From: Candidatus Marinacidobacterium sp.
Lineage (GTDB): Bacteria > Acidobacteriota > Vicinamibacteria > Marinacidobacterales > Marinacidobacteraceae
Assembly: GCA_965220965.1 (NCBI GenBank)
Contig: OZ244852.1
Location: 2,592,001-2,656,000 of the forward strand
Direction of reading: 5' to 3'
DNA: 64,000 nt
This document shows, piece after piece, positions 1 through 15,700 of the stretch. The position numbers were made by a program, and so were the translations under genes. Positions within the stretch are counted from its first letter, which is position 1, and each line of letters begins with the position of its first letter. Below the pieces are notes generated by a model. It was not told the DNA's origin, did not search any database, and was given only the letters and a program-made list of their open reading frames with translations.

Positions 1-1
1 G

Positions 2-313
2 AATCCCGAGAGCTTTCTGTCGTTCGGCTACGAGGAGCCGTTCCCGGTCATGGTCTGGTCCAGCCTCGCCTTCGAACCCGACCCCTCCATCGCCGTCGGG
101 GCGCGATTCCCCGAAGACGCGGCGGAGCTCCTCGGGAGCGGGTTCGCGTTCCCCGATTCGCTCGACCGGCTCGCGGGAAGTCCTTATGTCGTCACCGAGC
201 GCGTCGGCGCCGGCCGGGTCGTGCTTTTCCTGGACGACCCCAACTTCCGCCTCTTCTGGTCCGGGCTGACCCGACTCTTCCTGAACGCGGTCCTCTTCGC
301 GCCGACCTTCTGA
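2..313 (+). CDS. 3' end of probable M14 zinc carboxypeptidase family protein (partial)
   Basis: Frame open from the window edge; C-terminus GRVVLFLDDPNFRLFWSGLTRLFLNAVLF resembles the tail of large bacterial M14 peptidases. Confidence 0.6.
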   Translation, partial: NPESFLSFGYEEPFPVMVWSSLAFEPDPSIAVGARFPEDAAELLGSGFAFPDSLDRLAGSPYVVTERVGAGRVVLFLDDPNFRLFWSGLTRLFLNAVLFAPTF

Positions 314-432
314 TCCCGGGCCGGGGCCGGTTTCGCGGGGTCCCGGCTGCGCGCCCGGCATGTGACGTGAAATGGCGCATTAGCGCCGATTTCCGGGCTA
401 CATTCCCTCCCGGTCCGGGGAGGGAGTCACCT

Positions 433-3306
433 GTGCATTCATTCGATCAGCGGCTGAGTCGGCAGTTTCTCCTCGCTGCGTTCCGCGCGGCGAACTCGCG
501 TCCCCGCCTTCGCTCGCAACTGGCCGAGTGGATCCATGAGAGTGAGGTCGACCTCCGCTCCGTCGGCGCGGCGTTCCTGGTGACCGCCTCCGCGAAGAGG
601 CTCCTCGCCGAGGACGAAGACGAGGGGTTCGCGGGTCACGATCCGCTCTTTCGCCGCCGGTCGCGCCGCGAAGTCCCGCGTCCGGACGCCCGGTTGCGCC
701 AGTACTTCGCCCGCGTGATTCCCCGCCTCGAGGCCTCGCTTGCGGGACCGGGGCCGGCCCGCACCGGCGCCGCCCGGGCAACGCAGATCCTGGTCAACGC
801 CTTCCGCCTCAAGGCCCCGTGCGGGACGCTGCTCGACCTCGTCCGGCTCCATTCCGAGCGCGGTTCCGTGGTCTACCAGACCTGGGACCGCGTGAACGAC
901 GAGTTCCGTGACCAGCTCGCGACGACCGCGGCCCTGCTCGGCATCTCCCGGCGCTCGGTGGAGGCCGCGCTCCGCCGGCTTGACCGGGCGGGCCTGGGCG
1001 ACCCGGAGGACTGGGGCCGCGCCGGCGCCGACCCGGACGACTACCTGAACCGCTGGGTCGAGCGGATCTACAGCCCCCCGGTCACCACCGTCGACGAGCT
1101 TCGAACCCGCCTTGCGCCGCGAGCCGCGCCGCCGCTCCTCGGGCTTCGGGACTTCGAGCACCTCGACGAACGGGATGACGCGCTGAGGCTCCTCAAGGGC
1201 GCGCTCCGCCGCGGCGCCGGGCTCCGGGTGCTGCTCTATGGTCGACCCGGGACCGGCAAGACCGAGTTCGCGAAGACGCTGGCCCATGCCGCGGAGGCGC
1301 GTCTCTACGACATCGGCGGTCCGCTGTCTCGCCGCAGCTACCGCGCGGAGGAAGATCATCACACCCACGATCGTCCTTCGAGGAACCGGAACCGTTTGCG
1401 GTTCGCGGAGGCCCTCCTCCGCAGCGACCCGGGGGCCGTGATCCTCTGCGACGAGGTGGAGGATGTCCTGTCTTCGGAACCAGGGCGAAGGCGTCAGAGC
1501 CACTCGATGCTCGAGGAGTCGAGAGTTCCGGTCCTCTTCACCGGCAACGACCTGAGCCGGTTCGACGAGGCAGTGCTTCGGCGCTTCGATCTCATGATCC
1601 GGTTCCGGCCCCTCAGTCCCCGGCGCCGGAGGTCCGTCGTCCGCCGGATGCTGAGGACCGCCGACCTCCAGGGTGTGGGGGCCGACAGGATTGACGGGCT
1701 CGCCGTCCGTCTCGCGGACGAGCTGGAGTGCCCCCCGGCCATCATCGAGCGCGCGATCCACGCGACCCGGCTCGTGAAGGGTTCCGCAGAGGACCTGTTC
1801 CGGTTCGCCGAGCGGAACGAGCGGGTCCTGTCGCGGCGGACGCCACGGCCCCGGCTCGGGCCGCCGGTCGAGGCGGAGCTGGGCTGGGCCGCCTTCGCCC
1901 ATCTGGGAGAGCCCGCGGAAGACATCCGGCGGGTCCTGACGGCGGCCGTGGCCGCGAGGAAGGAACGTCGTCGCACAACGGCGCCGGTCAGCGCCCTCTT
2001 CCACGGCCCGCCGGGCGGCGGCAAGACGGCGTTCTGCCACGCGCTCGCCGCCGAAGCCGGCGCAACGCTCTACGCGGTCGGGCAGCGCGACCCCGGTGTG
2101 AACCCGCGTCCTTCGGCGCCGCGGTCCGAGGCGCTGGCGCACGCGATGGAGGCGCTCGCCGATGAGCCCGGCGCCGTCCTTCTGTTCGATGAGATCGAGG
2201 ACCTCGTGTTCGACCGCCCGAAGTTCTGGCTGAACTCGCTTCTCGAGGAGTGCCGCGTTCCCCTTCTGATGACGGCGAACGCCACCGAAGCTCTCCGGCG
2301 GCATTTGCCGCACTTCCTCGACCGCGTGACCTGCTCGCTCGAGTTCCGGCACATTCCGCGAAGGCGTCGCGCCTCCATGTTCCGGGATCTGCTGGGTGGA
2401 GACGAGGAGTCGCGTCGCGAAGCCCTGGTCACCCGTCTCGCCGAAGACCGGCGCGTCACCCCGCGCGCCGTTCGGAACGCGGCGCAGGTCGCCTCGCTCA
2501 CCGGACTCGGGATCGTCGCGGCCCGGCGGGCGGTCGAGGCGCACCAGAGCCTTCGGTACGGGCGCTCCGGCGCCCGTTCGAAGCCCGGCGCGGACTACGA
2601 CGTAGCGCTCATCTGCGCCCGACCGGATCTTCGGGCTCTGCGCGACCGGATCCTGGAAGCGGGTTCCGGTCGGCTGGGACTGCTGCTCGACGGCCCGTCG
2701 GGCAGCGGCAAGTCGGTCTTCGCCCGCCAGCTCGCCCTCGAGATGGGTCTCGATCCAGTGGTGAAGCGGGCCTCCGGGCTCCTGAGTTCCTGGGTCGGCG
2801 AGACCGAAAAACGTATCGCGGCAGCGTTCGCCGAGGCCCGGGTGGACGGAGGCTTCCTCATCATCGACGAGGCGGACTCGTTCCTGTTCGACCGCCGCGA
2901 CGCCTCCCGGACCTGGGAGACGAGCATGGTGAACGAGGTGCTCAGCCAGCTCGAGACCCACGACGGCCCCTACGCGTTCACGACGAACCTCGCCGACCGC
3001 CTCGACCCCGCGGTAGCCCGGCGGTTCCTCTTCCGGGCGACGTTCGACTATCTGGACCGTCCGAGGGTCGAGCGCGCCTTCGTCCACTTCTTCGGCGCGG
3101 AGGCGCCGCCCGCAGTGCTCGCGCTCACCCGGCTCGTGCCCGCCGACTTCGCGCTGGTGCGCGAACGCGCAAGCGTCCTCGGCTACCTGGACGACGTCGT
3201 CAGGCTGGAGGAGGAACTCCGCGCGCAGTCCGTTGGCCGCGAGGCCCGGACCCACGCCGGCTTCCGCATCGGAAGTCCGATGCCGGTGGGAGAGCGCCGG
3301 CCATGA
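433..3306 (+). CDS. AAA+ ATPase with three AAA modules and an N-terminal HTH-like segment
   Basis: Walker A GRPGTGKT, GPPGGGKT, GPSGSGKS; Walker B ILCDEVE, LLFDEIE, LIIDEAD; third module has WVGETEK and TTN..DRLDPAVARRF; GTG at 433 follows GGGAG (ORF is open from 367). Confidence 0.9.
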   Translation: MHSFDQRLSRQFLLAAFRAANSRPRLRSQLAEWIHESEVDLRSVGAAFLVTASAKRLLAEDEDEGFAGHDPLFRRRSRREVPRPDARLRQYFARVIPRLEASLAGPGPARTGAARATQILVNAFRLKAPCGTLLDLVRLHSERGSVVYQTWDRVNDEFRDQLATTAALLGISRRSVEAALRRLDRAGLGDPEDWGRAGADPDDYLNRWVERIYSPPVTTVDELRTRLAPRAAPPLLGLRDFEHLDERDDALRLLKGALRRGAGLRVLLYGRPGTGKTEFAKTLAHAAEARLYDIGGPLSRRSYRAEEDHHTHDRPSRNRNRLRFAEALLRSDPGAVILCDEVEDVLSSEPGRRRQSHSMLEESRVPVLFTGNDLSRFDEAVLRRFDLMIRFRPLSPRRRRSVVRRMLRTADLQGVGADRIDGLAVRLADELECPPAIIERAIHATRLVKGSAEDLFRFAERNERVLSRRTPRPRLGPPVEAELGWAAFAHLGEPAEDIRRVLTAAVAARKERRRTTAPVSALFHGPPGGGKTAFCHALAAEAGATLYAVGQRDPGVNPRPSAPRSEALAHAMEALADEPGAVLLFDEIEDLVFDRPKFWLNSLLEECRVPLLMTANATEALRRHLPHFLDRVTCSLEFRHIPRRRRASMFRDLLGGDEESRREALVTRLAEDRRVTPRAVRNAAQVASLTGLGIVAARRAVEAHQSLRYGRSGARSKPGADYDVALICARPDLRALRDRILEAGSGRLGLLLDGPSGSGKSVFARQLALEMGLDPVVKRASGLLSSWVGETEKRIAAAFAEARVDGGFLIIDEADSFLFDRRDASRTWETSMVNEVLSQLETHDGPYAFTTNLADRLDPAVARRFLFRATFDYLDRPRVERAFVHFFGAEAPPAVLALTRLVPADFALVRERASVLGYLDDVVRLEEELRAQSVGREARTHAGFRIGSPMPVGERRP
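3141..3255 (+). repeat. Direct repeat copy A (3' end of the AAA gene)
   Basis: Ungapped hand alignment to 4575-4689 gives 98/115 identities. Confidence 0.9.
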
Positions 3307-4547
3307 AGGCGATGACCAGGGACACGGGGTCCGACTACGGCTTCCTGCACACGATCGCTCCAAGCGACTTCGAGGGCCATCTGACCCGCATCTTCGCCTG
3401 GATCCTGCAGAACACCGGATTCGGCGAGGAGTATCTCGAACGCCTGAGGAAGAGATCCCACAAGGTTCCCGGCCCCACGGGCGAGGCCCCTCGGTGGGAC
3501 ACCGAGGTCTCCTTTCCACGCGAGGGAGGAGAAGCCATTCGCCCGGCGATGGTCTGCCGGTTCCGGAGCGGATACTCCGAATCCGGCGTCATCTTCGCCC
3601 ACACCGTATGCGCCCCTCTCCGCGATGGCCAGATCCAGGAATACCGGGACTCGGCGCCTCCAGAGTTGCAGGGAGCTCCGGTCGTTCTGATCTGTGAGAA
3701 CCCCGGCCAGATGTCCATGGACGTCGATGTGGAGCACTTCTGGTGGGACGTCCACACGTGGCTCGAGGCCTGGCTCCGCTCCAACCGCGCCGGGCTCAGC
3801 CCGGAAGTTGGCTTCGTTGTCCGCGACTTGCTGGAAATGATGGATCGGAGAGGGCTCAGTGAATCATCGTCGGGCATCCCATCGCGCGCTCACTGGACTG
3901 CGCTCTACTCTGCGCGAATCAGCGCCTCCGTCCATAAGCTCCTGCGGCTCGTGGTTCATCAGTGGCGCCTGCCGCACAACGTCGTGGAGGACTGGGGCCG
4001 GATCGGCTTCATGGCGCGCGGCGACTTCGAGCGAACCAGGGGCGCGGTTGAGGACGCTCCGGGAGTCTTCGTCGGGATCCTCCTGCCTTGTCAGGACTGC
4101 TTGACGCCCGAAAGAGAGCTGGAGGCGGTAGTGATGCTGTGGGGTGACGTGCTGTGCGACTGCACCCAGCCATCAGCCTTCCACGCCTTCCGAATCGAAC
4201 TGTTGCGGCGACAAGGAGATCTTCCGGAGGGTTGGAAGATTCAGGAGCCATGGAAGGCGGAGTTGGAACGGCCTTGGCCGCCCAGGGGTCCCAGGCCCTG
4301 GCGGCTGCTGGAACTACGACGTCCTCTCGCGGACGTCCTGTCACGCGTCGAGAGTGGTATCAGGCAGGCGCAGCGCTTCCATGATCAAGCCCGCGAGGTC
4401 GTCCGGGTGGTGGAGGAATGCCTCTCGAGTGCCGGAGGTAGTTGGGACTGGCGGTCAGACGACGAGCCGCCAGAAGTACAGGAGGCCGATGCGGGGTTCT
4501 CGGTCGACGAGTCAGAGGACGAAGAGGAGCCTGATGTGGGGTTTTGA
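3303..4547 (+). CDS. PD-(D/E)XK nuclease-like protein with degenerate active site and acidic tail
   Basis: ATGA overlap with the AAA stop; family-like scaffold EGHLTRIFAWIL...TE...RPAM...IFAHTV..L...QIQEY...WWDV, but D, E and K positions read A, A, T. Confidence 0.65.
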   Translation: MKAMTRDTGSDYGFLHTIAPSDFEGHLTRIFAWILQNTGFGEEYLERLRKRSHKVPGPTGEAPRWDTEVSFPREGGEAIRPAMVCRFRSGYSESGVIFAHTVCAPLRDGQIQEYRDSAPPELQGAPVVLICENPGQMSMDVDVEHFWWDVHTWLEAWLRSNRAGLSPEVGFVVRDLLEMMDRRGLSESSSGIPSRAHWTALYSARISASVHKLLRLVVHQWRLPHNVVEDWGRIGFMARGDFERTRGAVEDAPGVFVGILLPCQDCLTPERELEAVVMLWGDVLCDCTQPSAFHAFRIELLRRQGDLPEGWKIQEPWKAELERPWPPRGPRPWRLLELRRPLADVLSRVESGIRQAQRFHDQAREVVRVVEECLSSAGGSWDWRSDDEPPEVQEADAGFSVDESEDEEEPDVGF

Positions 4548-4574
4548 CAGGAATCGGTCAGGCGTTTCGTCCTC

Positions 4575-4689
4575 CGCCGGCCTCGCGCTGGTGCGCGAGC
4601 GCGCCGGCGTCCTCGGCTTGCTGAAGGAGGTCGCCCGGCTGGAAGAGGAGCTCCGCGCGCAGTCCGGCGGCCGCGAGGCCCGGACGCAC
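4575..4689 (+). repeat. Direct repeat copy B (orphan alternative 3' end of the AAA gene)
   Basis: Translates ALVRERAGVLGLLKEVARLEEELRAQSGGREARTH versus ALVRERASVLGYLDDVVRLEEELRAQSVGREARTH in the ATPase; frame open to TAA at 4753-4755. Confidence 0.9.
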
Positions 4690-4882
4690 CCGGCAACCGA
4701 AAAGGGGCCTGACGGGCGGGCGACCGGGCCAAGAGAACAAAAAAACCGTCGCTAAGAGCAGAATTCGCCCGTTCCTGCGTCGATCGGCGCAATCTGGGCT
4801 CTCCATCCAGTGAACCGGTTCCTCGCGGGGCCGACCACCCAACGAGGGATCCCCCTCACTGCCAAGCCAAGGAGGACATGGC

Positions 4883-5941
4883 ATGACAACCCCGAACATC
4901 TTCAAACACGCGACCTCGGAACTCTCGCAGGACGCGATGATTTGCTGGCTCGTCGACTGTGCGCGCGAGGCCACCGGGAGGCTACGGGAGTGCGGACTGG
5001 CCTTCGTTCAGGCGCTCTTCGACGCGGATGAGCGACGCGTAGTCCCTCCCGACAAGGGTGACGCCACGCCCTATTCGGGACCGGGAGAGGTGACTTCGGT
5101 ATCTTGCCCCAAACGTCAGTACGGGAAGATCGACGTCTATTTCCAGGCCGCCGTCGACGGTCAGACGGTCAGCTTCATCATCGAAGACAAGGTGCACTCC
5201 GGAGAGCACAGCAACCAGCTCGCGCGGTACCTCGAGGTCGTTCGAAGTGACGACGACGTGGAGGCTCTGATCAAGCCCACCTTCTTCAAGACCGGATACA
5301 TCTTCGACGACGAGAAGGACACAGCACGTGGCAACAACTACGCGCTGTTCTCGGGCGAGGATGCCGTCAAGGCGCTTGATCCCTTTACGGAAGTGCATCC
5401 CCTGATCGACCAGTTTGTGGCCCACCTGAAGAAGCACCAGCGAGACCGCGAGTTGGCTCTCGCTAATGCGTGCTTCGGTGATGCTGTGGTTCAGTGGGAG
5501 TTCGCCAAGCGACTCCGGGCAGCTCTTCCCGAAGACCTTCGGGGGGGGGCCGCGCCGAAGTGGACGCAGTGGAACGGAATCGGACGCGGCATCAATCGCG
5601 GCGGCGGGCCGTGGACCCAGTACCCGTTCGCGGGTCACTTCTGCTGGCGGCTGGATTCGCCCAGCTTGCGACTGATGCTCTATCCGAGAGAGGGGCTCAC
5701 ATCGGAGCCGGAGATGAGAGAACGATGGGAGCGTCTGAGCAGCCGCTTTGCCACGCTCGCGGCGGATGGCCGCCTGTCAGTCGTGAAGCTCCGCAAGAGG
5801 CGGACGTACAGGGGGCAGATCGTCAACGAGGGCACGGTCGGGGCGCTCGCGCTTCCCGAGACGGGTCCGTCCGGATGGGGCGCGTTCGTAGACCGGATCG
5901 TGAGCCTCACCGAGCGCCTTCTTAAGGAGGCCGGAGCGTAA
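4883..5941 (+). CDS. PD-(D/E)XK nuclease family protein
   Basis: N-terminus PNIFKHATSELSQDAMICWL; intact motif KIDVYF...IIEDKV...NQLARY; AAGGAGG RBS upstream. Confidence 0.85.
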   Translation: MTTPNIFKHATSELSQDAMICWLVDCAREATGRLRECGLAFVQALFDADERRVVPPDKGDATPYSGPGEVTSVSCPKRQYGKIDVYFQAAVDGQTVSFIIEDKVHSGEHSNQLARYLEVVRSDDDVEALIKPTFFKTGYIFDDEKDTARGNNYALFSGEDAVKALDPFTEVHPLIDQFVAHLKKHQRDRELALANACFGDAVVQWEFAKRLRAALPEDLRGGAAPKWTQWNGIGRGINRGGGPWTQYPFAGHFCWRLDSPSLRLMLYPREGLTSEPEMRERWERLSSRFATLAADGRLSVVKLRKRRTYRGQIVNEGTVGALALPETGPSGWGAFVDRIVSLTERLLKEAGA

Positions 5942-6063
5942 GTGAACGGCCGGCGCGCTCCGGCGGAAGGTTGCGAGCTACGGGAGTACGATCTCGCGAA
6001 CCGGGTCCCGGAGGAATGCGTTGGCGAGAATCCGTGGACGCCGGACCCGTGACGCAGCAGCCA

Positions 6064-6099
6064 CAGCCCGACACGGGGCTCTGATTCCCGGTCGGGCTG
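6064..6099. terminator. Stem-loop between convergent genes
   Basis: CAGCCCGAC...GTCGGGCTG 9-bp perfect stem; no U-tract. Confidence 0.35.
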
Positions 6100-6130
6100 A
6101 CGGAGAGCGCCGGGGTCTGATCCCCCGCGA

Positions 6131-7294
6131 TCAGGCCTCGGCCATCCGGTCGAACAGCGCCTTGTGGGTGTTCACGATGTGGTCCCGGGCGGCGGCGTTG
6201 GGTTCGAGTGACCACTCGCCCTTTTCGCCGGTGCCGCCCAGGATGATCCCGTCGTTTCGCGGCTGCATGCTGACGCCGGTGACGCCCGGAGGAGCGCCCG
6301 GGGCGGTGGTCGAGATGCCGTAGTTCACTTCCGCCTGCGGGACGAGCACGGTGAGCTGGCCCCGGAGCGGCATGAGCTCCGGGTCCTCGAACAGCTCGCC
6401 GGAGCCGAGCCCGGTGCAGTTGAACACGAGCGACTCCGGGAGCGCGGCGATCTCGCGCACATCGCTGAACTTGCGGATGACCAGCTTGCCCCCGTGGTCG
6501 CGGAAGTCCCGGACGAGCGCATCCAGGTAGGTCGCCGGCTCGATCCGGATCCTGGTCCGCCGCACCGCGTATTGCGTCGGGAAGTTGTGCTCGCCCGGAC
6601 CCAGCACGAAGCGGCCTCCACCGCTGAGATGCTCCGGGAGCAGGGGTCCCCGTCCCCGGGTGGGTCGGGGCGGCCGCGGTTCGCGCGGCGCGTCGTCCCG
6701 CAGCGCGTAGTGGTCGAGCCAGGCGATCCCGTATCCCCGGCCGGCGAGCCACTGGAACTCGAGATACGAGATCTCCACCGCCTCGCGGAACTGCGCGTCC
6801 CAGGCTGGCGTCCGTTGCGGATCATCCACCAGCCAGGCCGCCGGGGTGAACCCGGCCCACGCCATGTTGGAGGTCGTGTTTGGGGGCACGTTCGCGGCGT
6901 AGATCGTCACCTCGAAACCGCGCCGCTGGAGCTGACGGGCGGTGGCGAGCCCCACGGCGCCGCTCCCGAGGACCGCCGCCCGGCGGCTCGAATGGTCGAG
7001 CGCCATCTCGGCGGCCATCCGACCGGTCCCCCACGAGAGTGAAATGCCGGCCCCGCCGTGGCCGTAGTTGTGGATCAGCGTCTTGCTGTCGAGCTTGTCG
7101 GCGCGCAGGATGAACCCCGACGGCCGGTGCGGACGGAGTCCGACGGTCGTCCGGATCACCCGGTTCCAGGCCACCCGGACCGGGGCGAAGCGAAGCGCCG
7201 GCCGAGGCTGGATGTCGGCCCGGGTCGAGCACGCGCCGAGGCCGAGCCCCACCAGACCGGCGCTCCCCAGCTTCAACAGGTTCCGTCGTTTCAT
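6131..7294 (-). CDS. Tat-exported FAD-dependent oxidoreductase, D-amino-acid oxidase family (probable lipoprotein)
   Basis: Signal MKRRNLLK...LGLGAC; GSGAVG Rossmann motif; VFNCTGLGS, PLRGQ, GLRP and HNYGHGGAG motifs. Confidence 0.85.
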   Translation of the reverse strand: MKRRNLLKLGSAGLVGLGLGACSTRADIQPRPALRFAPVRVAWNRVIRTTVGLRPHRPSGFILRADKLDSKTLIHNYGHGGAGISLSWGTGRMAAEMALDHSSRRAAVLGSGAVGLATARQLQRRGFEVTIYAANVPPNTTSNMAWAGFTPAAWLVDDPQRTPAWDAQFREAVEISYLEFQWLAGRGYGIAWLDHYALRDDAPREPRPPRPTRGRGPLLPEHLSGGGRFVLGPGEHNFPTQYAVRRTRIRIEPATYLDALVRDFRDHGGKLVIRKFSDVREIAALPESLVFNCTGLGSGELFEDPELMPLRGQLTVLVPQAEVNYGISTTAPGAPPGVTGVSMQPRNDGIILGGTGEKGEWSLEPNAAARDHIVNTHKALFDRMAEA

Positions 7295-7374
7295 GCCTCT
7301 CCCCTGGACCCGGGTTGCTCCTGCGCGAACCCGCCGAACCCTATCAGCCGCGAACGCTACCGACGGGGCTCGTC

Positions 7375-7614
7375 TCAGTCGTCGCCCGCACGGCTCCGCC
7401 GGACCTGGCGCAGCACGTCGGCCGCCGGGACTCTGGGCTCGACCGGGGGCAGGGCGGCGAGAGCATCGAGCACTTCGGCCCGGGTCGGACGAGCCAGCGC
7501 CTTCTCGATCCACTGGCGGACGAGGACCGGGACGGAGACCCCTTCCCGCGCAGCCCGCGCCTTCAGGCGAACCACGATCTCCGGAGACACATCTCGAATC
7601 AGCAGGTCTGGCAT
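7375..7614 (-). CDS. FitA/VapB-like ribbon-helix-helix protein
   Basis: MPDLLIRDVSPEIVVRLKARAAREGVSV..LVR fits the RHH antitoxin pattern; 79 aa. Confidence 0.75.
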   Translation of the reverse strand: MPDLLIRDVSPEIVVRLKARAAREGVSVPVLVRQWIEKALARPTRAEVLDALAALPPVEPRVPAADVLRQVRRSRAGDD

Positions 7615-7692
7615 GGCCGAAGACCTCGCAGGACTTCTCTCGGGATTATGCGTGGTCCAAGCCATGGGGAGCGCGGAAACCGCCTGCTGGTC

Positions 7693-8685
7693 TCACACTT
7701 CGATTCCACATCGGGTAGCCAGCTTGCGGGCGAGCGCCTCAAAGTCCGCCCTGCAGTCGAGGACGGCGTAGGTGTGGGCGCCGAGGGCGCCGTCTGCCGA
7801 GCGAAGGTGGAACATGGGCTTCCTGGCCTCCTGCGCCATGGCCATCAGGCTCCGGTAATGCTTGAGCGTGGCGAGACAGTGTTCGTCCTCTTCATCCCCG
7901 CTGGCGCCCCCGTCCGCCTGTTCGAGCATCTCTGTCCGGTAGACCCCCGGGATCCTGCCGCCCCACCACTCGTAAGCCGCCGCTCGTCCTCCGATGCGCA
8001 CGCCGTGCTCCAGCACGATGTATCCCGCCGGCTCCATGCGCCCCGACGGAAGATCGGAGTCGATGACTCCCGGGGCTTCCCGGACTCGCCTCCGCCATCC
8101 CTTGCGCCAGCTCCCGAGCGTGGGGCCCATGCTGCGCAATGCCTGAAGGGCGACCACGTCGGGGCCAAGCGGGATCACCACGAAGTCCGCCGCGAGCAGT
8201 GCGGCCCGATTGATCGCGCCCAGGTTGGGCCCGACGTCTATCAGAGCGACATGCGCCGCGCGGCCCCGGGCCGCGTTCGCGATGAGTCGGTGGAACCCCG
8301 AGACGGTGCGAAACGCCGCCTCGTTGTGGTCGAGGCACTGGGGCCAGGCGGACGAAAGGTTGTCTTCGAACCGCGACAGGCCCAGGTCTCCGACCAGCAG
8401 ACCGAGCCCCGGCGCGACCTCTTCGACATGAGGCGTCGCCAGGATGTCGCCCGTCCCTCTAAGGATCGGAGACACCCCTCCGAGAATCGTGTCCGGATGG
8501 TCCCCCTCCCGCCAGAGCTCTTCCAGCCGTTCCTCTGCCAGGAACATCGTGGACGCGTTCGCCTGCGGATCCAGGTCGGCTACGACGACCGGTACGTCCA
8601 GTTCGGAGAACATCCATGCCAGGTGGTAGACGAGGGTCGTCTTGCCGACGCCCCCCTTGTTGTTGAAGAAAGCGATCGTCGTCAT
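7693..8685 (-). CDS. ParA/Soj family ATPase
   Basis: Deviant Walker A NKGGVGKTT, DLDPQAN, IDVGPNLG. Confidence 0.9.
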   Translation of the reverse strand: MTTIAFFNNKGGVGKTTLVYHLAWMFSELDVPVVVADLDPQANASTMFLAEERLEELWREGDHPDTILGGVSPILRGTGDILATPHVEEVAPGLGLLVGDLGLSRFEDNLSSAWPQCLDHNEAAFRTVSGFHRLIANAARGRAAHVALIDVGPNLGAINRAALLAADFVVIPLGPDVVALQALRSMGPTLGSWRKGWRRRVREAPGVIDSDLPSGRMEPAGYIVLEHGVRIGGRAAAYEWWGGRIPGVYRTEMLEQADGGASGDEEDEHCLATLKHYRSLMAMAQEARKPMFHLRSADGALGAHTYAVLDCRADFEALARKLATRCGIEV

Positions 8686-9869
8686 GGCTGACGCCGGATC
8701 GTCGCCACGACCGAGGCCTGTTCGAGATCGAAGTGCGCCGCCGGGCTCCCGTTGTGTCGGAGTGCGTCCTGCGCCCGGATGATCCCGCGACCGAACCGGT
8801 TCACGTACCCGAGGGTGGCCATGGCTTCCGCCAGCACCGGATTCCGGTAGTCGGTCACCGGGGGCGGCCCGAGGCTGGCGCTGCCGTAGAAGCCGCCCGG
8901 ATTCTGGATCTCGATTCGGTCCGCGAACCAGTTGAAGCGCGTTGGCGCATTGGACTCGTAGGATCGGTGCATTACCGCGTTCAGCAGGAGCTCCCGTATT
9001 GCGACCGGAGGGTAGTCCTGCAACCGGGTCTCTCGCAGCGCGGTGGCGGCAACGGGTCGGGCCCTCGACGGACGGGACGCGATGGACTCGAGGAGCCGAA
9101 GAACGGTCAGGAGATCACCGCTGACGACCTCCTCCGCGATTGGCTCACTCGCGAACGAATCGCCCGCCCACTGCACGAATTGGAGCCAGGCTCCCGGAAT
9201 CCATCGCAGCGGCTCCTTTCCGAAGAGGAGGATGCCGGCCATCGTCGGACAGCGCGAACGGGGATCGAAGAAGCGGAGAGACGCCATCTGTTCTTCGAGT
9301 TCCCGGTCGTTCTCCTCGATCACGTCATGGGATACCGCCTGTGGGAGGTACGTCCCCTGGAAGAGTTCGGGAACGAGGTCGTCAAGAGAGCTTCCGACAC
9401 ACGGTCGCAGATCGAAGGGAAGATGGCGCGAGGCGCGCTTTTCCACCAGGATTCGCTCCTCCTGGCGATTCGCGGCCCGACGCGAAGGGCCGACACGAAT
9501 CCAGACGCGGCCCTTGTAGCGCACTGGCGGGAGGTCGGAAGGCAGCACCTCGACGATGCCCACGTCGCCTTCCGGCAGAGCGACCTTGCCCACGGTCAGA
9601 GCCGGAAGCGGCTCCAGGTTCACGTTCGAACGCAGGGACGCCACCTCACGCAGCGTCTTGTCAGAGATCTCCCGGCCAGCGGGGCGCCCGTCATCGTGGA
9701 CGCCGATCAGGAGATATCCCGGCGCCCCGTGATTCGGGAAGTCGTTTGCGAAGGCGCAGATGGCCTCCGCGAACTTCTCCGTTTTGCCGATCGCGTTCGT
9801 GAATTCGATCCGGTCGGATTCACCGGCGTCGAGGAGATCCCGCAGCCGGGACTCCTCCAGAGCCTTCAC
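8682..9869 (-). CDS. Schlafen/AlbA_2 domain protein with RecG-C-terminal-like (HATPase_c_4) domain
   Basis: GESDRIEF...ICAFAN...GYLLIGVHDDG; RELLLNAVMHRSY, DRIEIQNPGG, RNPVLA, GRGI; GTG start overlaps the upstream stop. Confidence 0.85.
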   Translation of the reverse strand: MKALEESRLRDLLDAGESDRIEFTNAIGKTEKFAEAICAFANDFPNHGAPGYLLIGVHDDGRPAGREISDKTLREVASLRSNVNLEPLPALTVGKVALPEGDVGIVEVLPSDLPPVRYKGRVWIRVGPSRRAANRQEERILVEKRASRHLPFDLRPCVGSSLDDLVPELFQGTYLPQAVSHDVIEENDRELEEQMASLRFFDPRSRCPTMAGILLFGKEPLRWIPGAWLQFVQWAGDSFASEPIAEEVVSGDLLTVLRLLESIASRPSRARPVAATALRETRLQDYPPVAIRELLLNAVMHRSYESNAPTRFNWFADRIEIQNPGGFYGSASLGPPPVTDYRNPVLAEAMATLGYVNRFGRGIIRAQDALRHNGSPAAHFDLEQASVVATIRRQP

Positions 9870-10438
9870 GAATCGTGGAGCCGTCGCCCGGTGATGCCCA
9901 GCTCCTCGGCGTGCGGGCGCAGCGCCGCGACGATGAAGTCGATGTGCTCTCCGAGGTCCACGCCCAGCAGCTCCGCGCCGATGCGGCACTCGTGCCGCTC
10001 CACCTTCGCTGCGAACGCCTTGTCCTTCAGCTTCTTCTTCACGCTGCGGGCGGTGAGGGTCGAGACCCCCTCGGGGCGAACCAGGCAGCACGCGACGATG
10101 AACCCGGTCAGCTCGTCACACGCGAGCAGGGCGCGGTCCATTGGCGACTTCAGGGGGACGCCCCACCTCGTGTAGTGGCCCGAGATCGCGTAGGCGAGGT
10201 CCTCCTCGCCGCGCTCCCGCAGCCACGCCACGATCCGCTTCGGGTGATCCTCCGGCCACTTCTCGTAGTCGGCGTCGTGGAGCATGCCGGCCATCCCCCA
10301 CCGCTCGGGGTCCGCATCCGGCCCGCCGTAGCGGCTGGCGGCGGCCCGCATCACGATCTCCACCGAGCGGGCGTGTTTCCGGAGCGACTCCGTCTCGCAC
10401 CACTCCGTCAGGTGCCCCCAGGCTTCGTCCCGGGTCAT
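9866..10438 (-). CDS. HD-domain phosphohydrolase
   Basis: SLRKH...GMLHDADYE...H...ACDELTGF motifs. Confidence 0.9.
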   Translation of the reverse strand: MTRDEAWGHLTEWCETESLRKHARSVEIVMRAAASRYGGPDADPERWGMAGMLHDADYEKWPEDHPKRIVAWLRERGEEDLAYAISGHYTRWGVPLKSPMDRALLACDELTGFIVACCLVRPEGVSTLTARSVKKKLKDKAFAAKVERHECRIGAELLGVDLGEHIDFIVAALRPHAEELGITGRRLHDS

Positions 10439-10851
10439 CAGGAGCTCTCGCCTTCGCTCTTGGACTTCGGCGGACAGCAGGCGTCCACGCTCCACTTGCC
10501 GGAGCCGGCGGTGGCCAGGAAGGCGAACACGATGCAGTAGACCAGCGCCAGCTCGCCGTCGTTTTCGATCGGGAGCAGCCCCTCAGGCTGGTGCCGGTAG
10601 AAGTAAGCGATCAGCATCTGGATCGAGGCGAGCGCGGCGGCGATGCGGGTCTGGTAGCCGGCGAGGATCAGCGCGCCGGTGACGAGCTCGACGATCCCGG
10701 CGGTGTTGTAGAGCCACGCCGGCGAGTAGGGCGTGCCCTCGCCGAGGAGGTACGCCACCGCGATGATCCCGTGGCAGAAGAACAGGAACCCGGCGACGAT
10801 GCGCAAGAGCGCATACGCGGTGTCCCGGTGGTCGGCGAGAACGGTCTTCAT
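10438..10851 (-). CDS. DoxX family membrane protein
   Basis: ALLRIVAGFLFFCHG, AGIVE, TRIAA, GELA, GSGKWSVD. Confidence 0.9.
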   Translation of the reverse strand: MKTVLADHRDTAYALLRIVAGFLFFCHGIIAVAYLLGEGTPYSPAWLYNTAGIVELVTGALILAGYQTRIAAALASIQMLIAYFYRHQPEGLLPIENDGELALVYCIVFAFLATAGSGKWSVDACCPPKSKSEGESS

Positions 10852-10873
10852 GGGTTCTTTCCTCGTTGGCCGG

Positions 10874-12832
10874 TCATTCCTCCGGCGGGAGCGCGAGCGC
10901 GACGAACTCACCCGGGAAGTCGCGGGCGCCAACCGCAACGACCAGGATCTGCCGGCCGTCGACCTCGTAGCTCATCGGAGTGCCCGACTGGTTCGCGGGA
11001 AGCTCGAACTCCCACAGGATCTCTCCCGTCGCCTTGTCGTGGGCGCGGAACATGGGGCCGCCGGTTCCGAAGGCGGCGAACAGCCCGCTGCCCTCCCCGG
11101 CGAAGAGAAGCGTCTTCGTCACCAGCAGTCCGCCGCGGTCGGCCTGACCGGTGCGGCCCAGCTCGACGCCCTCGAGCGCCGGATGCTCGCGGATCCACTC
11201 CGGAGTGTCCGAGTTCGGGACCCACCAGGCGATCTCGCCCCGGTTCAGGTCGATCGCGGTGATCTTCCCCCACGGCGGCTTCAGCAGCGGCAGACCCTGC
11301 GGGCCGCCGCCCTCGGGCAGCCGGATGTCGCGCCCCCGCCCCTGGATGTAGTCCATCGTGGACCTCTCCGGGTCGTTCTCGAGCCCCAGCACGTTCACGT
11401 CGAGCCCGGAGGAGACGTAGAGCATGCCGGTTTCCGGGTCGGCGGCGACGCTCGGCCAGTTCGCGCCGCCCAGCGCGCCGGGAACCGTCAGCGTGCCCCG
11501 GTTCCCTCGCTCCTCGATGAGCGTCGGTGGGGTGTAGAGCGGGCCGAGCGTGTAGAACCGGGCGATCGCTTCGGCCTCGGCGCGGAGCTCCGGCGTGAGG
11601 TCGAGGAGATCGTCCTCCGAAACGCCCTGCCGCTGGAAGGGCGGGGGTTTCGTAGGGAAGGGCTGCGTCGGGGCGGCCCGCTCACCCGGGACCGTCGAGG
11701 CGGCCATCGGCCGCTCCTCGATGGGCCAGACCGGCTCTCCGGTGCGCCGGTCGAAGACGAAGGTGAACGCCTGTTTCGTGACCTGCGCCAGCGCCGGGAT
11801 CTCGCGCCCGTCCACGACCAGGTCCAGCAGGACGGGCGCGGTCGGAAGGTCGTAGTCCCAGATCCCGTGGTGGACGGTCTGGAAGTGCCAGCGCCGCTCG
11901 CCGGTGGCGGCGTCGAGCGCCACCACGCTCTGGGTGAACAGGTTGTCGCCCGGGCGATGGCCGCCGTAGTAGTCCCCGGTGGCGGCCTCCAGCGGAAGGT
12001 AGACGAGCCCCAGTTCCGGGTCGGCGCTCATCCAGGCCCAGACGCCGCCGTTCCCGGTCGTCCGCCAGCTCCCGTTCTCCCAGGTGTCGTTCCCGAACTC
12101 CCCTTCGCGCGGGATCGTGTGGAAGGTCCACAGCAGCTCTCCGGTCCGGACGTCGTAGCCGCGCACCGGCGAAGGCGGGTTCTCCGGCGAGGGCGGAGCG
12201 CCGCCGCTCGGGAGCGCCGCCCCGACGACGACCACGTCCCCCACGACGGTCGGGGGCGAACCGGAGCCGATCGGGGCCCGCTGCAGGTCGACCTCGCGGC
12301 CGAGGTCGCGCCGCAGGTCCACCATCCCGTCGAACCCGAAGGATGGGACCGGCCGCCCGGTCCCGGCGTCCAGCCCTACGAGCTGGTAGGCGGGCGTCAC
12401 CAGGAAAAGGCGCGCCTGCTCCCCGTCGCTCCAGAAGGAGAGTCCCCGCCCCGATGTCTGCCGCGGCGCGGACCGCCCGCGCGGCCCCTCGTCGAGGCGG
12501 TACATCCAGAGGGTCTCGCCGGTGAGACCGTCGATCGCCACCGCGACCCGGCGGGCGCCGGCGGTGGCGTAGAGCACCCCGTCGATCGCCAGCGGGGTCG
12601 TCCGCAGGTTCCAGTCCTCCCGGGGCCCGAAGTTCTGCGAGGTCCACCGCCAGAGGATCTCCAGATCCCCCACGTTTCCGGCGTGGATCTGGTCGAGCGG
12701 CGAGTAGCGGGTGGACGCCAGATCCCCGGCGTAGTGGGGCCACTCGCCGGGCTCGCGATCCTGGGCGGCGGCGACCGTCCCCAGGACCAGCGCGGTCACC
12801 GCCGCGCGCGGGATCAGCCGCCGGAGTACCAA
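10874..12832 (-). CDS. PQQ-dependent dehydrogenase (glucose dehydrogenase-like beta-propeller)
   Basis: EWPHYAGD..STRYSPLDQI, WHFQTVHHGIWDYDLP, KPPWG, TPMSYEVDGRQ; start approximate (TTG). Confidence 0.9.
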   Translation of the reverse strand: MVLRRLIPRAAVTALVLGTVAAAQDREPGEWPHYAGDLASTRYSPLDQIHAGNVGDLEILWRWTSQNFGPREDWNLRTTPLAIDGVLYATAGARRVAVAIDGLTGETLWMYRLDEGPRGRSAPRQTSGRGLSFWSDGEQARLFLVTPAYQLVGLDAGTGRPVPSFGFDGMVDLRRDLGREVDLQRAPIGSGSPPTVVGDVVVVGAALPSGGAPPSPENPPSPVRGYDVRTGELLWTFHTIPREGEFGNDTWENGSWRTTGNGGVWAWMSADPELGLVYLPLEAATGDYYGGHRPGDNLFTQSVVALDAATGERRWHFQTVHHGIWDYDLPTAPVLLDLVVDGREIPALAQVTKQAFTFVFDRRTGEPVWPIEERPMAASTVPGERAAPTQPFPTKPPPFQRQGVSEDDLLDLTPELRAEAEAIARFYTLGPLYTPPTLIEERGNRGTLTVPGALGGANWPSVAADPETGMLYVSSGLDVNVLGLENDPERSTMDYIQGRGRDIRLPEGGGPQGLPLLKPPWGKITAIDLNRGEIAWWVPNSDTPEWIREHPALEGVELGRTGQADRGGLLVTKTLLFAGEGSGLFAAFGTGGPMFRAHDKATGEILWEFELPANQSGTPMSYEVDGRQILVVAVGARDFPGEFVALALPPEE

Positions 12833-13941
12833 ATCCGGTAGATCGCGCCGGCCCGGTCGTCCGACACCAGAATGTCCCCGGAGGGGAGTTCGAGGATGTC
12901 CACCGGGCGTCCCCAGGGGCTCTCCTCGGGCGCTCCGATCCAGCCGGTCACGAAGTCCTCGTATCCGGTCGCGACGCCGTCCTTCGTCCGCACGATGGTG
13001 AGGCGGTAGCCGATCCGCTCGGTGCGGTTCCACGAGCCGTGCTCCGCGACCAGCGCCTGCCCGCGGTATTTCTCGGGGAACTGGTCGCCCCGGTAGAAGG
13101 TCATCCCGATGGCGGCCACATGCGGACCGAGCTGCTGCGTGGGCGGCGTGAAGTCGTCGCAGGCCCCGTCGCGCGAGAACCACGGGTCGGGCCGGTCCCC
13201 GCCGTGGCAGTACGGGTAGCCGAAGTGCTCGCCGATCTCGCCAAGGATGTTCATCTCACCGGGCGGGTTGTCGTCGCCGAGCCAGTCGGGGTTGTTGTCG
13301 GTGAACCACATCTCCCCGGTCTCGGGGTGCCAGTCGAAGCCCACCGACATCCGCACGCCGCGCGCCGCCACCTCGAGCCCGCTCCCGTCGGGGAGCATCC
13401 GGGCGATGGAGGCGAACAGCGGGTCCGCCGAGTCGCAGCGGTTGCATGGCGCCCCGATCGGGACGTAGAGATAGCCGTCCGGACCGAAGTCGATGAACTT
13501 CCATCCGTGGTGGCGCATGTTCGGCAGATCGTCGGTCACGACCTCGGGCTCGCCGGGATCGGCCAGACGGGACTCGATGTCCGGGAACCGGAGGATCCGG
13601 TTCACCTCCGCCACGTAGAGGTCATCCCCGCGCATGGCCACGCCGTTCGGCATGAACAGCTCCTCGTCGAGCTCGTGGATCTCGTCGGCCCGGTGGTCGC
13701 CATTCCGGTCCGCGATCGCGTAGACGCTCCCGGAGGCGTCGCGGGTGCCGACGAAAATCGTCCCCCCGTCTCCGCGAGTCAGCGACCGGGCCCCGGGGAT
13801 CCGTCCCCAGACCGAGACCTCGAAGCCCGGCGGAAGCTTCAGCCGCTCGAGCGGAAGCGCGGCGCCCGGAGAGGAGCGCTGGGCGGTCGCCGGCGCCGCC
13901 AGCGCCAGCGAAAGGAGCAGAAACGCCGGGGCGTTGCGCAT
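12814..13941 (-). CDS. Sorbosone/soluble PQQ sugar dehydrogenase family protein
   Basis: Signal peptide; HHGWKFIDFGPDG.LYVPIGAPCN.C, EHGSWNR, GRPVD, VSDD. Confidence 0.9.
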   Translation of the reverse strand: MRNAPAFLLLSLALAAPATAQRSSPGAALPLERLKLPPGFEVSVWGRIPGARSLTRGDGGTIFVGTRDASGSVYAIADRNGDHRADEIHELDEELFMPNGVAMRGDDLYVAEVNRILRFPDIESRLADPGEPEVVTDDLPNMRHHGWKFIDFGPDGYLYVPIGAPCNRCDSADPLFASIARMLPDGSGLEVAARGVRMSVGFDWHPETGEMWFTDNNPDWLGDDNPPGEMNILGEIGEHFGYPYCHGGDRPDPWFSRDGACDDFTPPTQQLGPHVAAIGMTFYRGDQFPEKYRGQALVAEHGSWNRTERIGYRLTIVRTKDGVATGYEDFVTGWIGAPEESPWGRPVDILELPSGDILVSDDRAGAIYRIWYSGG

Positions 13942-13972
13942 TCGGTGGGTCCTCGCCTGTGGAATCGGGAAG

Positions 13973-15580: not shown

Positions 15581-15700
15581 CGTCTCCTTCCGGTGTGGCG
15601 TTCGCCACCCGCCCCGGGCGTTCCCCGGCCGGGCGCCGAACCGGCGATTGTACGGCGGGGCGCCAGCCGTCCGCTCCCGGCCGGGATACGCTGACTCGCC

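What the first reader, a model, noticed from the sequence alone, without database searches (positions are those of the whole stretch)
433..5941. Candidate new system: triple-AAA ATPase, catalytically dead nuclease and active nuclease in a repeat-punctuated cassette
Seen: three co-directional genes. The ATPase is coupled by an ATGA overlap to a PD-(D/E)XK-like protein lacking its catalytic residues; a diverged copy of the ATPase 3' end follows, then an intact PD-(D/E)XK nuclease with a strong RBS. The two nuclease-fold genes look more AT-rich than the core genes. Known: NTPase-plus-nuclease pairs are a recurrent anti-phage architecture (McrBC, Gabija, Septu, PARIS), and AAA+ unfoldases reset or disarm effectors (e.g. 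TRIP13/HORMA in type III CBASS). Inference: a defence or conflict module in which the dead paralogue acts as sensor, adaptor or inhibitor and the ATPase remodels it to control the active nuclease. I do not recognise this combination as a named system.
Basis: partly seen in the sequence, partly recalled or inferred. Interest (0 to 1): 0.85.

Follow-up and report, generated by a model that had tools for sequence, protein, structure and literature searches.

The report
ATPase island with dead and live nucleases
A 5.8-kb accessory island carries a three-module protein-unfolding ATPase, a nuclease-family gene that has lost all three catalytic residues, a leftover copy of the ATPase gene's end and an intact nuclease gene; it looks like a one-off mosaic built by gene swapping behind the ATPase, not a conserved new three-gene system.

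Summary
There is a 957-aa triple-AAA ATPase (433-3306) and an ATGA overlap with a 414-aa gene (3303-4547). A 116-nt, 85% copy of the ATPase 3' end lies at 4574-4689. An intact PDDEXK_4-type nuclease gene (4883-5941) follows an AGGAGG site. Both nuclease-fold genes are AT-richer than their neighbours. Gene 2 belongs to a large nuclease family: 865 representatives at E<=1e-3. In an alignment of 78 members, the other 77 carry D/E/K at the catalytic columns; gene 2 alone has A/A/T.

The trio is not a conserved system. Among 59 dereplicated loci of the ATPase family with at least 1.5 kb downstream, the gene 2 family occurs in 2 and the gene 3 family in 3, window included. The orphan 3' end occurs only here. 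The recurrent partner, in the two-AAA branch, is a WYL/WCX regulator (27 of 59); none lies near this locus. Two same-genus genomes lack the whole block. Family-level relatives keep the ATPase at the same site with different cargo, often nucleases.

Best reading: an ATPase-anchored variable slot, probably defence-related. Cargo is exchanged by recombination in the ATPase 3' end. Function is untested.

The parts
320..6125 (.). Accessory island between two core genes (a 957-aa upstream gene that ends at 313, and a DAO-type oxidoreductase on the minus strand from about 6131)
   Evidence: In same-genus genomes G802 and G803 the two flanking genes lie 0.73-0.77 kb apart, against 5.8 kb here. Homology to G802 stops at the upstream gene's stop codon and resumes at the DAO gene's end.
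361..395 (+). Promoter-like conserved motif with an inverted repeat (369-393, GAAATGGCGC-ATTA-GCGCCGATTTC) upstream of the ATPase gene
   Evidence: A related motif (TGACAGGAAATGGCG...GCGTTTAGCGTCC) lies at the same distance upstream of the ATPase genes of L179, L180 and L089/L090. The inverted repeat is unique in the genome. Its function is inferred.
433..3306 (+). Triple-AAA+ ATPase, 957 aa: helical N-domain with an HTH-like stretch, then three AAA modules. The third is a classical Cdc48/VCP-type module with a WVGETE pore loop. An AGF motif lies near the C-terminus.
   Evidence: Pfam AAA, 3 stretches. PDB sequence hits VCP-like/Rix7/Cdc48, E 1e-18 to 1e-16, on residues 748-869. AlphaFold pLDDT 82.1; Foldseek top hits Cdc48/Rix7/NVL, E about 1e-13. 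Walker residues invariant. GC3 0.86.
3140..3255 (+). Repeat copy A: the functional ATPase 3' end (codons for FALVRERASVLGYLDDVVRLEEELRAQSVGREARTH)
3303..4547 (+). Gene 2, 414 aa: catalytically dead member of a large PDDEXK_4-like family (N-terminal nuclease fold, C-terminal T3SS-chaperone/YbjN-like domain, acidic tail). Its start overlaps the ATPase stop (ATGA).
4574..4689 (+). Repeat copy B: orphan, truncated copy of the ATPase 3' end (85% to copy A), starting about 15-25 nt after the gene 2 stop. Read here as a recombination scar.
   Evidence: No second C-terminal fragment was found in 102 other loci of the family.
4870..4875 (+). AGGAGG ribosome-binding site of gene 3
   Evidence: Read from the sequence
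4883..5941 (+). Gene 3, 352 aa: PDDEXK_4-family nuclease with an intact D84/E101/K103/Q112 motif
   Evidence: Pfam PDDEXK_4 20.9 bits, just under the 22.3 cut-off. 61 homologues besides itself, many carrying PF14281. Invariant catalytic columns. PADLOC PDC-S26 E 2.2e-6 over the core only.

Best explanation
The block is an accessory island in a variable hotspot of an Acidobacteriota chromosome.

Its anchor is a Cdc48-like triple-AAA+ unfoldase gene with its own conserved promoter-like element. Behind that gene lies an exchangeable cargo slot. In relatives the slot holds other genes, often nucleases.

Here the slot holds two independently acquired, AT-richer PDDEXK_4-type genes. Gene 3 is an intact nuclease and the likely effector; it has its own ribosome-binding site. 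Gene 2 came in later by recombination, with one crossover inside the ATPase 3' end. That event left the displaced old 3' end as a 116-nt orphan between the two cargo genes and created the ATGA junction.

Gene 2 keeps the fold-defining residues of its family but has lost D, E and K. It therefore cannot cut by the canonical mechanism. It is either a detoxified relic or a binding-only protein.

The most likely function of the whole is defence against foreign DNA, with the unfoldase controlling or assisting a nuclease.

Shown: the anatomy, the dead motif, the island status, the variable cargo and the lack of conserved linkage. Inferred: the order of events, the defence role and any ATPase-nuclease interplay.
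For: Island status: same-genus G802 and G803 lack the block between the same two flanking genes.

Anchor: G813 (L179), G810 (L180) and the metagenome contigs L089/L090 have a roughly 54%-identical triple-AAA ATPase directly after the same upstream gene, with a shared upstream motif.

Cargo differs between these loci:
- L179: RecB-like protein of 614 aa.
- L089: DUF429-like protein, RecB-like/RNase_H_2 protein of 710 aa, and a PDDEXK_4 protein (PDC-S26, E 6e-15).
- L180: convergent DNA methyltransferase and an RHH/PIN pair.
- L181: a PckA-like gene (named from its sequence, no family search).
- L182 and L088: ankyrin-repeat protein.
- L001: unknown 332-aa protein.

Counts over 59 dereplicated loci with at least 1.5 kb downstream: WYL regulator 27, any of four nuclease profiles 8, gene 2 family 2, gene 3 family 3. 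Two plasmid loci add annotated PD-(D/E)XK genes.

Recombination scar: repeats A and B. B is truncated at both ends, and its tail lacks the family's [IVM]GF motif.

In L141 a gene 3 homologue (33% identity, profile E 1.6e-44) follows a family ATPase by 28 nt, so ATPase followed by gene 3 is a plausible older arrangement.

Foreign composition of both cargo genes. Dead motif. The fold is kept: pLDDT 82.5.

Defence flavour: a gene 2 family member sits between hsdS and hsdR on a Shewanella plasmid. PDC-S26 models hit the PDDEXK_4 relatives. PDC systems were derived by guilt-by-embedding (10.1101/2024.01.29.577857, passages read).
Against: No experiment and no RNA data bear on function or co-transcription.

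Only 8 dereplicated triple-AAA contexts could be read, out of about 150 homologues known as proteins.

No PADLOC model of a validated system matches as a whole. The gene 3 match to PDC-S26 covers only 45 residues.

The ATPase has host-like GC3 (0.86) and is kept at this locus in several relatives. It could therefore be a housekeeping-type unfoldase whose neighbours are incidental.

The order of acquisition cannot be proven. Repeats A and B are each other's closest relatives (85%) and no donor was found. A Campbell-type insertion of a gene 2 circle, or a gene 3 cassette arriving with fragment B, fits equally well.

Three separate catalytic substitutions in an otherwise well-kept ORF that is translationally coupled to the ATPase argue for a selected non-catalytic role rather than a mere relic.
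Confidence: 0.55

Rival explanations
1. One reading: one functional three-part system. The nuclease-dead paralogue is a sensor, adaptor or inhibitor. The AAA+ unfoldase remodels it to release or restrain the active nuclease.
For: ATGA coupling of the ATPase and gene 2. Gene 2 keeps the invariant fold residues (E24, T28, W33, F98, H100, Q110, W147, G232-G235) while all three catalytic residues are replaced, and it folds with confidence. The third AAA module has a canonical substrate-threading pore loop (read from the sequence) and Cdc48-like structure matches. Nuclease genes recur near ATPases of the family: 8 of 59 by profiles, plus 2 annotated plasmid loci.
Against: The trio is unique. Outside the window the gene 2 family appears once, in L143, as a weak core-only match (E 1.3e-4). 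Outside the window the gene 3 family appears in L141 and, weakly, in L101. Gene 2 and gene 3 are too distant to be a recent paralogue pair. The orphan fragment shows that the order is a recombination product.
Confidence: 0.15
2. The block is a DNA-damage or repair-type module, not a defence module. It would resemble the WYL-controlled regulons (DriD/PafBC type) in which AAA ATPases and nucleases are induced by single-stranded DNA.
For: In the two-AAA branch of the family a wHTH-WYL-WCX regulator follows the ATPase in 27 of 59 dereplicated loci. Regulators of this family sense single-stranded DNA (PMC11662680, abstract seen in the listing). The plasmid versions carry AddAB-like nuclease and UvrD-type helicase genes.
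Against: No WYL gene lies near this locus; the genome's only close homologue is 266 kb away. The block is absent from same-genus genomes. The cargo genes are compositionally foreign. The gene 2 family's annotated context is a type I restriction operon.
Confidence: 0.15
3. There is no joint function at all. The ATPase is a stand-alone unfoldase with a cellular client. Gene 2 is a decaying relic and gene 3 a selfish or solitary nuclease that landed in a permissive hotspot.
For: The ATPase has host-like composition and is kept at this locus in relatives, with unrelated neighbours in some of them (a PckA-like gene in L181, ankyrin-repeat proteins in L182 and L088). PDC-S26-type candidates are single-gene units.
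Against: The ATPase evolves fast compared with its flank: 61-77% nucleotide identity along most of the gene against 80-83% for the upstream gene's end. It is patchy, full-length in 1 of 401 and 1 of 401 sampled genomes of the phylum, which does not look like housekeeping. Gene 2 is an intact 414-codon ORF with a coding-type GC pattern.
Confidence: 0.15

Closest known systems
PADLOC PDC-S26 and Pfam PDDEXK_4 (PF14281): single-gene, untested phage-defence candidates of the PD-(D/E)XK superfamily
   Same: Gene 3 and the gene 2 family share the N-terminal Glu helix, the D...ExK core and the QLxxY signature, and a size of about 350-400 aa. PDDEXK_4 relatives next to ATPases of this family hit PDC-S26 strongly (L101 E 9e-33, L089 E 6e-15). 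The ESM Atlas places gene 2 nearest a PDDEXK_4 cluster (score 0.95).
   Different: Gene 3 reaches PDC-S26 only over 45 core residues (E 2.2e-6) and falls just below Pfam's cut-off. A central member of the gene 2 family (P0231) hits no PADLOC model. Gene 2 itself lacks D, E and K. The function of PDDEXK_4 is listed as unknown (PMC3424549, one table passage read).
IetAS (IetA AAA ATPase plus IetS protease) and TRIP13-type AAA regulators of CBASS
   Same: The third AAA module matches IetA profiles (E 1.9e-25) and TRIP13 profiles (E 7.8e-12). Both are classical-type AAA modules found in defence loci.
   Different: Only about 130 residues match. The NCBIfam IteA equivalog scores 79.7 bits against a cut-off of 510. 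No protease, HORMA or cyclase gene is in the block. This protein has three AAA modules and a helical N-domain.
Cdc48/p97, VAT, Rix7/NVL: tandem classical AAA+ unfoldases
   Same: These are the best sequence and structure matches. The third module has a WVGETE-type pore loop (read from the sequence).
   Different: The protein has three modules, not two. The first two modules lack an aromatic pore loop (read from the sequence). The N-domain is unrelated. A conserved [IVM]GF motif lies near the C-terminus. NCBIfam CDC48 scores 81 bits against a cut-off of 803.
WYL/WCX-regulated defence operons (BrxR of BREX, CapW of CBASS)
   Same: The two-AAA branch of the ATPase family is followed by a wHTH-WYL-WCX protein (Pfam WYL 1.2e-13, WCX 2.3e-14). 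Variable genes, several of them nucleases, are inserted between or after the pair.
   Different: No WYL gene lies in or near this island. The ATPase-WYL pair itself matches no named system in PADLOC.
Orphan C-terminal modules of Rhs and CDI loci (recalled; an analogy only)
   Same: A displaced fragment of the conserved gene's 3' end precedes an older downstream cassette. This is the footprint of cassette replacement by recombination within the conserved gene.
   Different: Here the conserved gene is an ATPase, not a toxin carrier. The cassette is a separate gene, not a fused tip. The footprint was seen once in 103 loci.

Membership tests
PD-(D/E)XK superfamily, PDDEXK_4-like (gene 3) | Catalytic D...(D/E)xK motif with the family's QLxxY signature | tested here: met
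   D84, E101, K103 and Q112 are invariant in 31 aligned members, gene 3 included.
PD-(D/E)XK superfamily, PDDEXK_4-like (gene 3) | Pfam PF14281 gathering score | tested here: inconclusive
   20.9 bits against a cut-off of 22.3. Many of its 61 homologues carry PF14281 in the precomputed column.
PDDEXK_4-like family of gene 2 | Full-length sequence homology to the family | tested here: met
   The profile search returns gene 2 at E 1.6e-126 over positions 6-384, among 865 representatives at E<=1e-3. E24, Q110 and W147 are invariant; T28, W33, F98, H100 and Y114 are nearly invariant and kept in gene 2.
PDDEXK_4-like family of gene 2 | Catalytic D, E and K | tested here: not met
   A82, A99 and T101 in gene 2, against D/E/K in 77 of 77 other aligned members. 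Those 77 were the full-length entries I picked from the 150 best of 865 hits.
PDDEXK_4-like family of gene 2 | Restriction-endonuclease-like fold | tested here: met
   AlphaFold pLDDT 82.5. Residues 14-165 align to 1y88 (Z 8.2, rmsd 2.7, 107 aligned), R.BspD6I (Z 6.6), SduA (6.4) and VC1899 (6.4). These Z values are middling. The Foldseek best hit was MspJI at only E 1e-2.
IetAS | IetA equivalog score and an adjacent IetS protease | tested here: not met
   79.7 bits against a cut-off of 510. No peptidase family was found in gene 2 or gene 3.
McrBC-type GTPase plus nuclease | McrB-type AAA_5 GTPase with an adjacent McrC | tested here: not met
   AAA_5 matches only the P-loop (residues 288-312). 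McrC appears only as one of many nuclease-fold matches (Z 5.3).
Type III CBASS TRIP13/HORMA module | HORMA and CD-NTase genes next to the TRIP13 ATPase | tested here: not met
   There is only a partial TRIP13 profile match (E 7.8e-12). No HORMA or cyclase hit was found among the proteins scanned.
WYL-regulated ATPase-nuclease cassettes | wHTH-WYL-WCX regulator gene adjacent to the ATPase | tested here: not met
   No match to the WYL profile in the window. The single genomic homologue is at C1:2325924-2327342, 266 kb away.
Classical-clade AAA+ unfoldase | Walker A, Walker B, sensor 1 and Arg residues; aromatic pore loop | tested here: met
   GxxGxGK[TS], DE, N and RR are invariant in all three modules across 22 homologues. 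A WVGETE pore loop is present in module 3 only (read from the translation).

The most novel reading that the evidence does not exclude
The ATPase gene is the fixed 5' arm of a shuffling defence locus. New effector cassettes are captured by recombination inside its 3' end, as orphan tips are in Rhs and CDI loci. The nuclease-dead PDDEXK_4 protein, translationally coupled to the unfoldase, has been kept as a non-cutting DNA-binding or decoy subunit that the unfoldase loads, removes or unfolds to gate the live nuclease. This would define an undescribed ATPase-anchored family, two- and three-AAA forms, the former WYL-controlled, with swappable nuclease effectors.
Probability: 0.15. Interest if true: 0.7.

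Novelty: new variant of a known kind. Interest (0 to 1): 0.4.

Why it matters
If the defence reading is right, three things follow.

- The locus gives a clean natural example of how effector genes are exchanged behind a conserved NTPase gene, with the recombination scar still in place.
- It also gives a natural triple-mutant 'dead' nuclease with which to ask what non-catalytic PD-(D/E)XK proteins do.
- The wider result may matter more than the trio. A large, unnamed family of Cdc48-like two- and three-AAA ATPases has a WYL/WCX regulator and variable nucleases as recurrent neighbours. This is a candidate defence or damage-response module found on chromosomes and plasmids of several phyla.

As it stands, the three-gene combination is a single occurrence without functional data.

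Tried and rejected
1. The search for related loci on genome contigs with the full ATPase alignment chose Walker-motif patterns and gave only one full-length relative, L001. The scan was then spent.

2. Two 400-genome phylum searches turned out to sample the same phylum. The centre G401 is the same genome as G806, a family-level relative (equal contig length). They found no further full-length copy.

3. The listing of cluster members gave no organism names.

Comparing longest-contig lengths between the lists showed no shared contig except 27438 (P0179 and L100). There the gene 3 homologue, if it is on that contig, lies outside the 8 kb fetched.

5. Predicted complex of gene 3 with gene 2: no verdict (score 0.00, mark 0.32, controls not run). 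This is no evidence either way.

6. Sequencing runs: no RNA holder listed. No reads were laid.

7. The sigma-70 promoter scan found 0 sites, and the terminator-like sites (2) did not exceed shuffles.

8. No tRNA gene lies in 1-20000, and no flanking att-like repeat was seen.

9. The inverted repeat upstream of the ATPase was searched genome-wide as a possible shared operator. It is unique, and none lies at the distant WYL gene.

10. I considered whether burying the conserved [IVM]GF motif under the 13-residue extension matters, and rejected the idea. Homologues carry 0-40 residues after the motif.

11. Tandem duplication of an ATPase-end-plus-nuclease unit as the origin of gene 2 and gene 3 was rejected. 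The repeats are 85% identical, while the two genes show no pairwise similarity.

12. Literature. One search ('WYL domain', 'AAA ATPase', 'anti-phage', 'defense island') listed no paper on this ATPase-WYL pair among the 15 shown. One search ('PDDEXK_4', 'PF14281') returned one paper. One search covered PADLOC PDC. Supplementary tables that define PDC-S26 could not be opened.

Full report
**1. What is there**

The window is GC-rich, about 70%. Between a core gene that ends at 313 and a DAO-type oxidoreductase gene on the minus strand (from about 6131) lie three co-directional ORFs.
- 433-3306: 957 aa. The same 957-aa form is the one held in the public protein collection.
- 3303-4547: 414 aa.
- 4883-5941: 352 aa.

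The first two overlap by ATGA. AGGAGG lies 7 nt before the third start.

A direct repeat of 116 nt at 85% identity joins 3140-3255, the end of the ATPase gene, to 4574-4689, just after the stop of gene 2. No other direct repeat in 1-7000 exceeds 32 nt. Alignment extends the similarity to about 3127-3258 versus 4560-4692 and shows sharp breaks on both sides.

GC is 0.712 for the ATPase, 0.639 for gene 2 and 0.630 for gene 3. GC3 is 0.86, 0.77 and 0.78, against 0.86-0.92 for neighbouring core genes.

**2. The ATPase**

Pfam finds three AAA stretches. Walker A, Walker B, sensor-1 Asn and paired Arg residues of all three modules are invariant in 22 homologues.

The third module is a classical-clade AAA. 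PDB sequence matches are VCP-like ATPase, Rix7, NVL and Cdc48, at E 1e-18 to 1e-16 on residues 748-869. It carries a WVGETE pore loop; modules 1 and 2 have none (read from the translation).

The AlphaFold model has pLDDT 82.1. It shows a helical N-domain of about 230 residues with a weak HTH-like stretch, followed by three AAA modules. Foldseek puts Cdc48, Rix7, NVL and AFG2 first, at E about 1e-13.

PADLOC IetA (E 1.9e-25) and TRIP13 (E 7.8e-12) match only about 130 residues. The curated NCBIfam cut-offs for IteA (79.7 against 510 bits) and CDC48 (81 against 803 bits) are far from met.

An [IVM]GF motif preceded by basic residues is conserved near the C-terminus of the whole family, followed by 0-40 residues.

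**3. Gene 2**

Pfam, NCBIfam and PADLOC give nothing for gene 2. A word-indexed search found 9 relatives at 23-26% identity. A profile search of 1.84 billion representatives found 865 at E<=1e-3 and 194 at E<=1e-30.

I aligned gene 2 with 77 full-length members, which I picked from the best 150. Columns 82, 99 and 101 read D, E and K in 77 of 77 others and A, A and T in gene 2. Q68 is also changed to E. E24, Q110 and W147 are invariant, and T28, W33, F98, H100 and Y114 are nearly invariant and kept in gene 2.

The model (pLDDT 82.5, pTM 0.73) has two domains.
- The N-terminal domain (14-165) aligns to restriction-endonuclease-like folds: 1y88 at Z 8.2, R.BspD6I at 6.6, SduA at 6.4, VC1899 at 6.4, and also Can2, McrC and FokI.
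- The C-terminal domain (about 190-380) resembles DUF1054/YbjN and type III secretion chaperone folds (Z 7-8).

These Z values are middling, and Foldseek alone was weak. The ESM Atlas puts a PDDEXK_4 cluster first, at score 0.95.

One family member on a Shewanella plasmid is annotated as a PD-(D/E)XK nuclease and sits between hsdS and hsdR of a type I restriction operon.

Gene 2 is thus a uniquely inactivated but otherwise well-kept member of a widespread nuclease family.

**4. Gene 3**

Gene 3 has 61 homologues besides itself, many carrying PF14281. D84, E101, K103 and Q112 are invariant in 31 aligned sequences, gene 3 included. Its Pfam score is just under the threshold, and its PDC-S26 match covers only the core.

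Gene 2 and gene 3 show no pairwise similarity. Their family profiles align only over the ExK-QLxxY stretch, at 53% probability and E 1.4e-4. They are distant cousins, not a recent paralogue pair.

**5. Is the trio a system?**

I collected 103 loci of the ATPase family:
- 80 from metagenomes, using a family-specific C-terminal alignment;
- 15 from named genomes (L001-L015);
- one further locus of genome G401 (L088);
- 2 plasmids;
- 4 relatives;
- the window itself.

Most encode a two-AAA form of about 700 aa that matches residues 475-945. Dereplicated at 90% identity of the C-terminal region, they form 79 groups; 59 of these have at least 1.5 kb downstream.

Within 5 kb downstream of the ATPase, out of these 59:
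- a wHTH-WYL-WCX regulator occurs in 27 (Pfam WYL and WCX);
- one of four nuclease profiles occurs in 8;
- the gene 2 family occurs in 2: the window, and a weak core-only hit in L143;
- the gene 3 family occurs in 3: the window, L141 directly after the ATPase, and L101 weakly.

Two plasmid loci add annotated ADP-ribosylglycohydrolase, HEPN and AddAB-like genes after the WYL gene. Variable genes often sit between the ATPase and the WYL gene: a Mrr-like gene, PDDEXK_4 genes and an unknown 270-295-aa family.

An orphan C-terminal fragment was found in the window only.

The eight triple-AAA groups have different downstream genes:
- RecB-like nuclease in L179 and L089;
- in L089 also a PDC-S26-type PDDEXK_4 gene;
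- ankyrin-repeat protein in L088 and L182;
- a convergent DNA methyltransferase with an RHH/PIN pair in L180;
- a PckA-like gene in L181 (named from its sequence; no family search was run);
- an unknown protein in L001, with a WYL gene at +3.7 kb.

The window's genome has one WYL homologue, 266 kb away. A looser association of the ATPase family with nucleases is real.

**6. Island and hotspot**

Same-genus genomes G802 and G803 have the two flanking genes 0.73-0.77 kb apart. Homology stops exactly at the upstream stop codon and resumes at the end of the DAO gene.

Family-level relatives G813 and G810, and the contigs L089 and L090, keep a triple-AAA gene directly after the same upstream gene. 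A shared upstream motif is present. The ATPase is only about 54% identical in protein, while the upstream gene's end is 80-83% identical in DNA.

The ATPase was found full-length in 1 of 401 and 1 of 401 sampled genomes of the phylum. One relative bears the name Candidatus Marinacidobacterium, which places the window in Acidobacteriota.

This is the behaviour of an accessory, fast-evolving gene in a variable hotspot.

**7. How the present order arose (inferred)**

Copy B is truncated at both ends, and its tail lacks the family's GF motif. Copy A continues into a normal AGF end, followed by 13 codons and then the ATGA junction.

The simplest account has three steps. An older ATPase-gene 3 arrangement existed; its like is seen in L141. 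It then received a segment carrying a related ATPase 3' end plus gene 2. One crossover lay inside the ATPase gene, and the other junction lay just upstream of what is now copy B.

A and B are each other's closest relatives, and no donor was found. The direction of events therefore stays open.

**8. Function**

Nothing here tests function. No RNA run is listed. The complex prediction for gene 3 with gene 2 gave no verdict.

I favour an ATPase-anchored cargo slot with a defence role (0.55).

Earlier notes of this scan describe WYL-AAA pairs with swappable nucleases in other phyla. They agree with the wider pattern found here, but they are unchecked leads and involve other AAA families.

**9. Verdict**

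The block is a single-occurrence mosaic. It has one notable feature, a triple-substituted dead nuclease coupled to an unfoldase, and it points to a useful by-product: an unnamed ATPase-WYL-nuclease family. Interest 0.4.

Noticed in passing
window 7375-10091 (minus strand): An RHH (FitA-like) gene, a ParA-type ATPase gene and an AlbA_2/Schlafen + HATPase_c_4 gene form a second AT-richer block in the same hotspot. The last protein hits PADLOC pAgo-associated profiles (Aga_SIR2-PNTD, E 2.2e-19). Relatives G805 and G808 carry this block at the same site, with or without the ATPase.
   Followed up: partly
loci L091-L168, L171, L172 (for example L096:6087-9441): A two-AAA ATPase of about 700 aa is followed within about 50-120 nt by a wHTH-WYL-WCX regulator in many proteobacterial contigs and plasmids. 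An unknown 270-295-aa protein (motif FF.SRTV.YPG.G.DG.P) recurs in 4 of 59 dereplicated loci (for example L110, L123, L141 and L159). No PADLOC system matches the pair.
   Followed up: partly
L171 and L172 (Leisingera and Fuscovulum plasmids): The annotated order is AAA ATPase, WYL protein, ADP-ribosylglycohydrolase, (HEPN), a PD-(D/E)XK protein of about 850 aa, and a UvrD-type helicase. This looks like a larger conserved cassette.
   Followed up: no
C-terminus of the ATPase family (window 3256-3264, AGF): An [IVM]GF motif after a basic stretch is kept in nearly all of about 100 family members. It recalls the IGF loops by which ClpX docks on ClpP (recalled). No peptidase partner was seen.
   Followed up: no
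window 4440-4547: Gene 2 ends in an acidic tail that its homologues lack (...DESEDEEEPDVGF). The tail, like the canonical ATPase end, finishes in VGF. This may be chance.
   Followed up: no
L157:3458-4417 and L185:8266-9354: FtsZ-like genes follow a family ATPase (L157), and a truncated gene 2 family protein plus a WYL gene next to an integrase (L185, Pseudoalteromonas plasmid).
   Followed up: no
L166 (8001-8372 and 13435-13800); G401 (L001 and L088): Some genomes carry two copies of the ATPase. In L166 they lie 5.4 kb apart on one contig. In the Marinacidobacterium genome they lie 200 kb apart.
   Followed up: no
L107:1591-2193, L097, L118: A short ORF with only the central domain of the DNA polymerase III beta clamp (Pfam E 7.4e-18) sits between the ATPase and the WYL gene in three contigs.
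   Followed up: no
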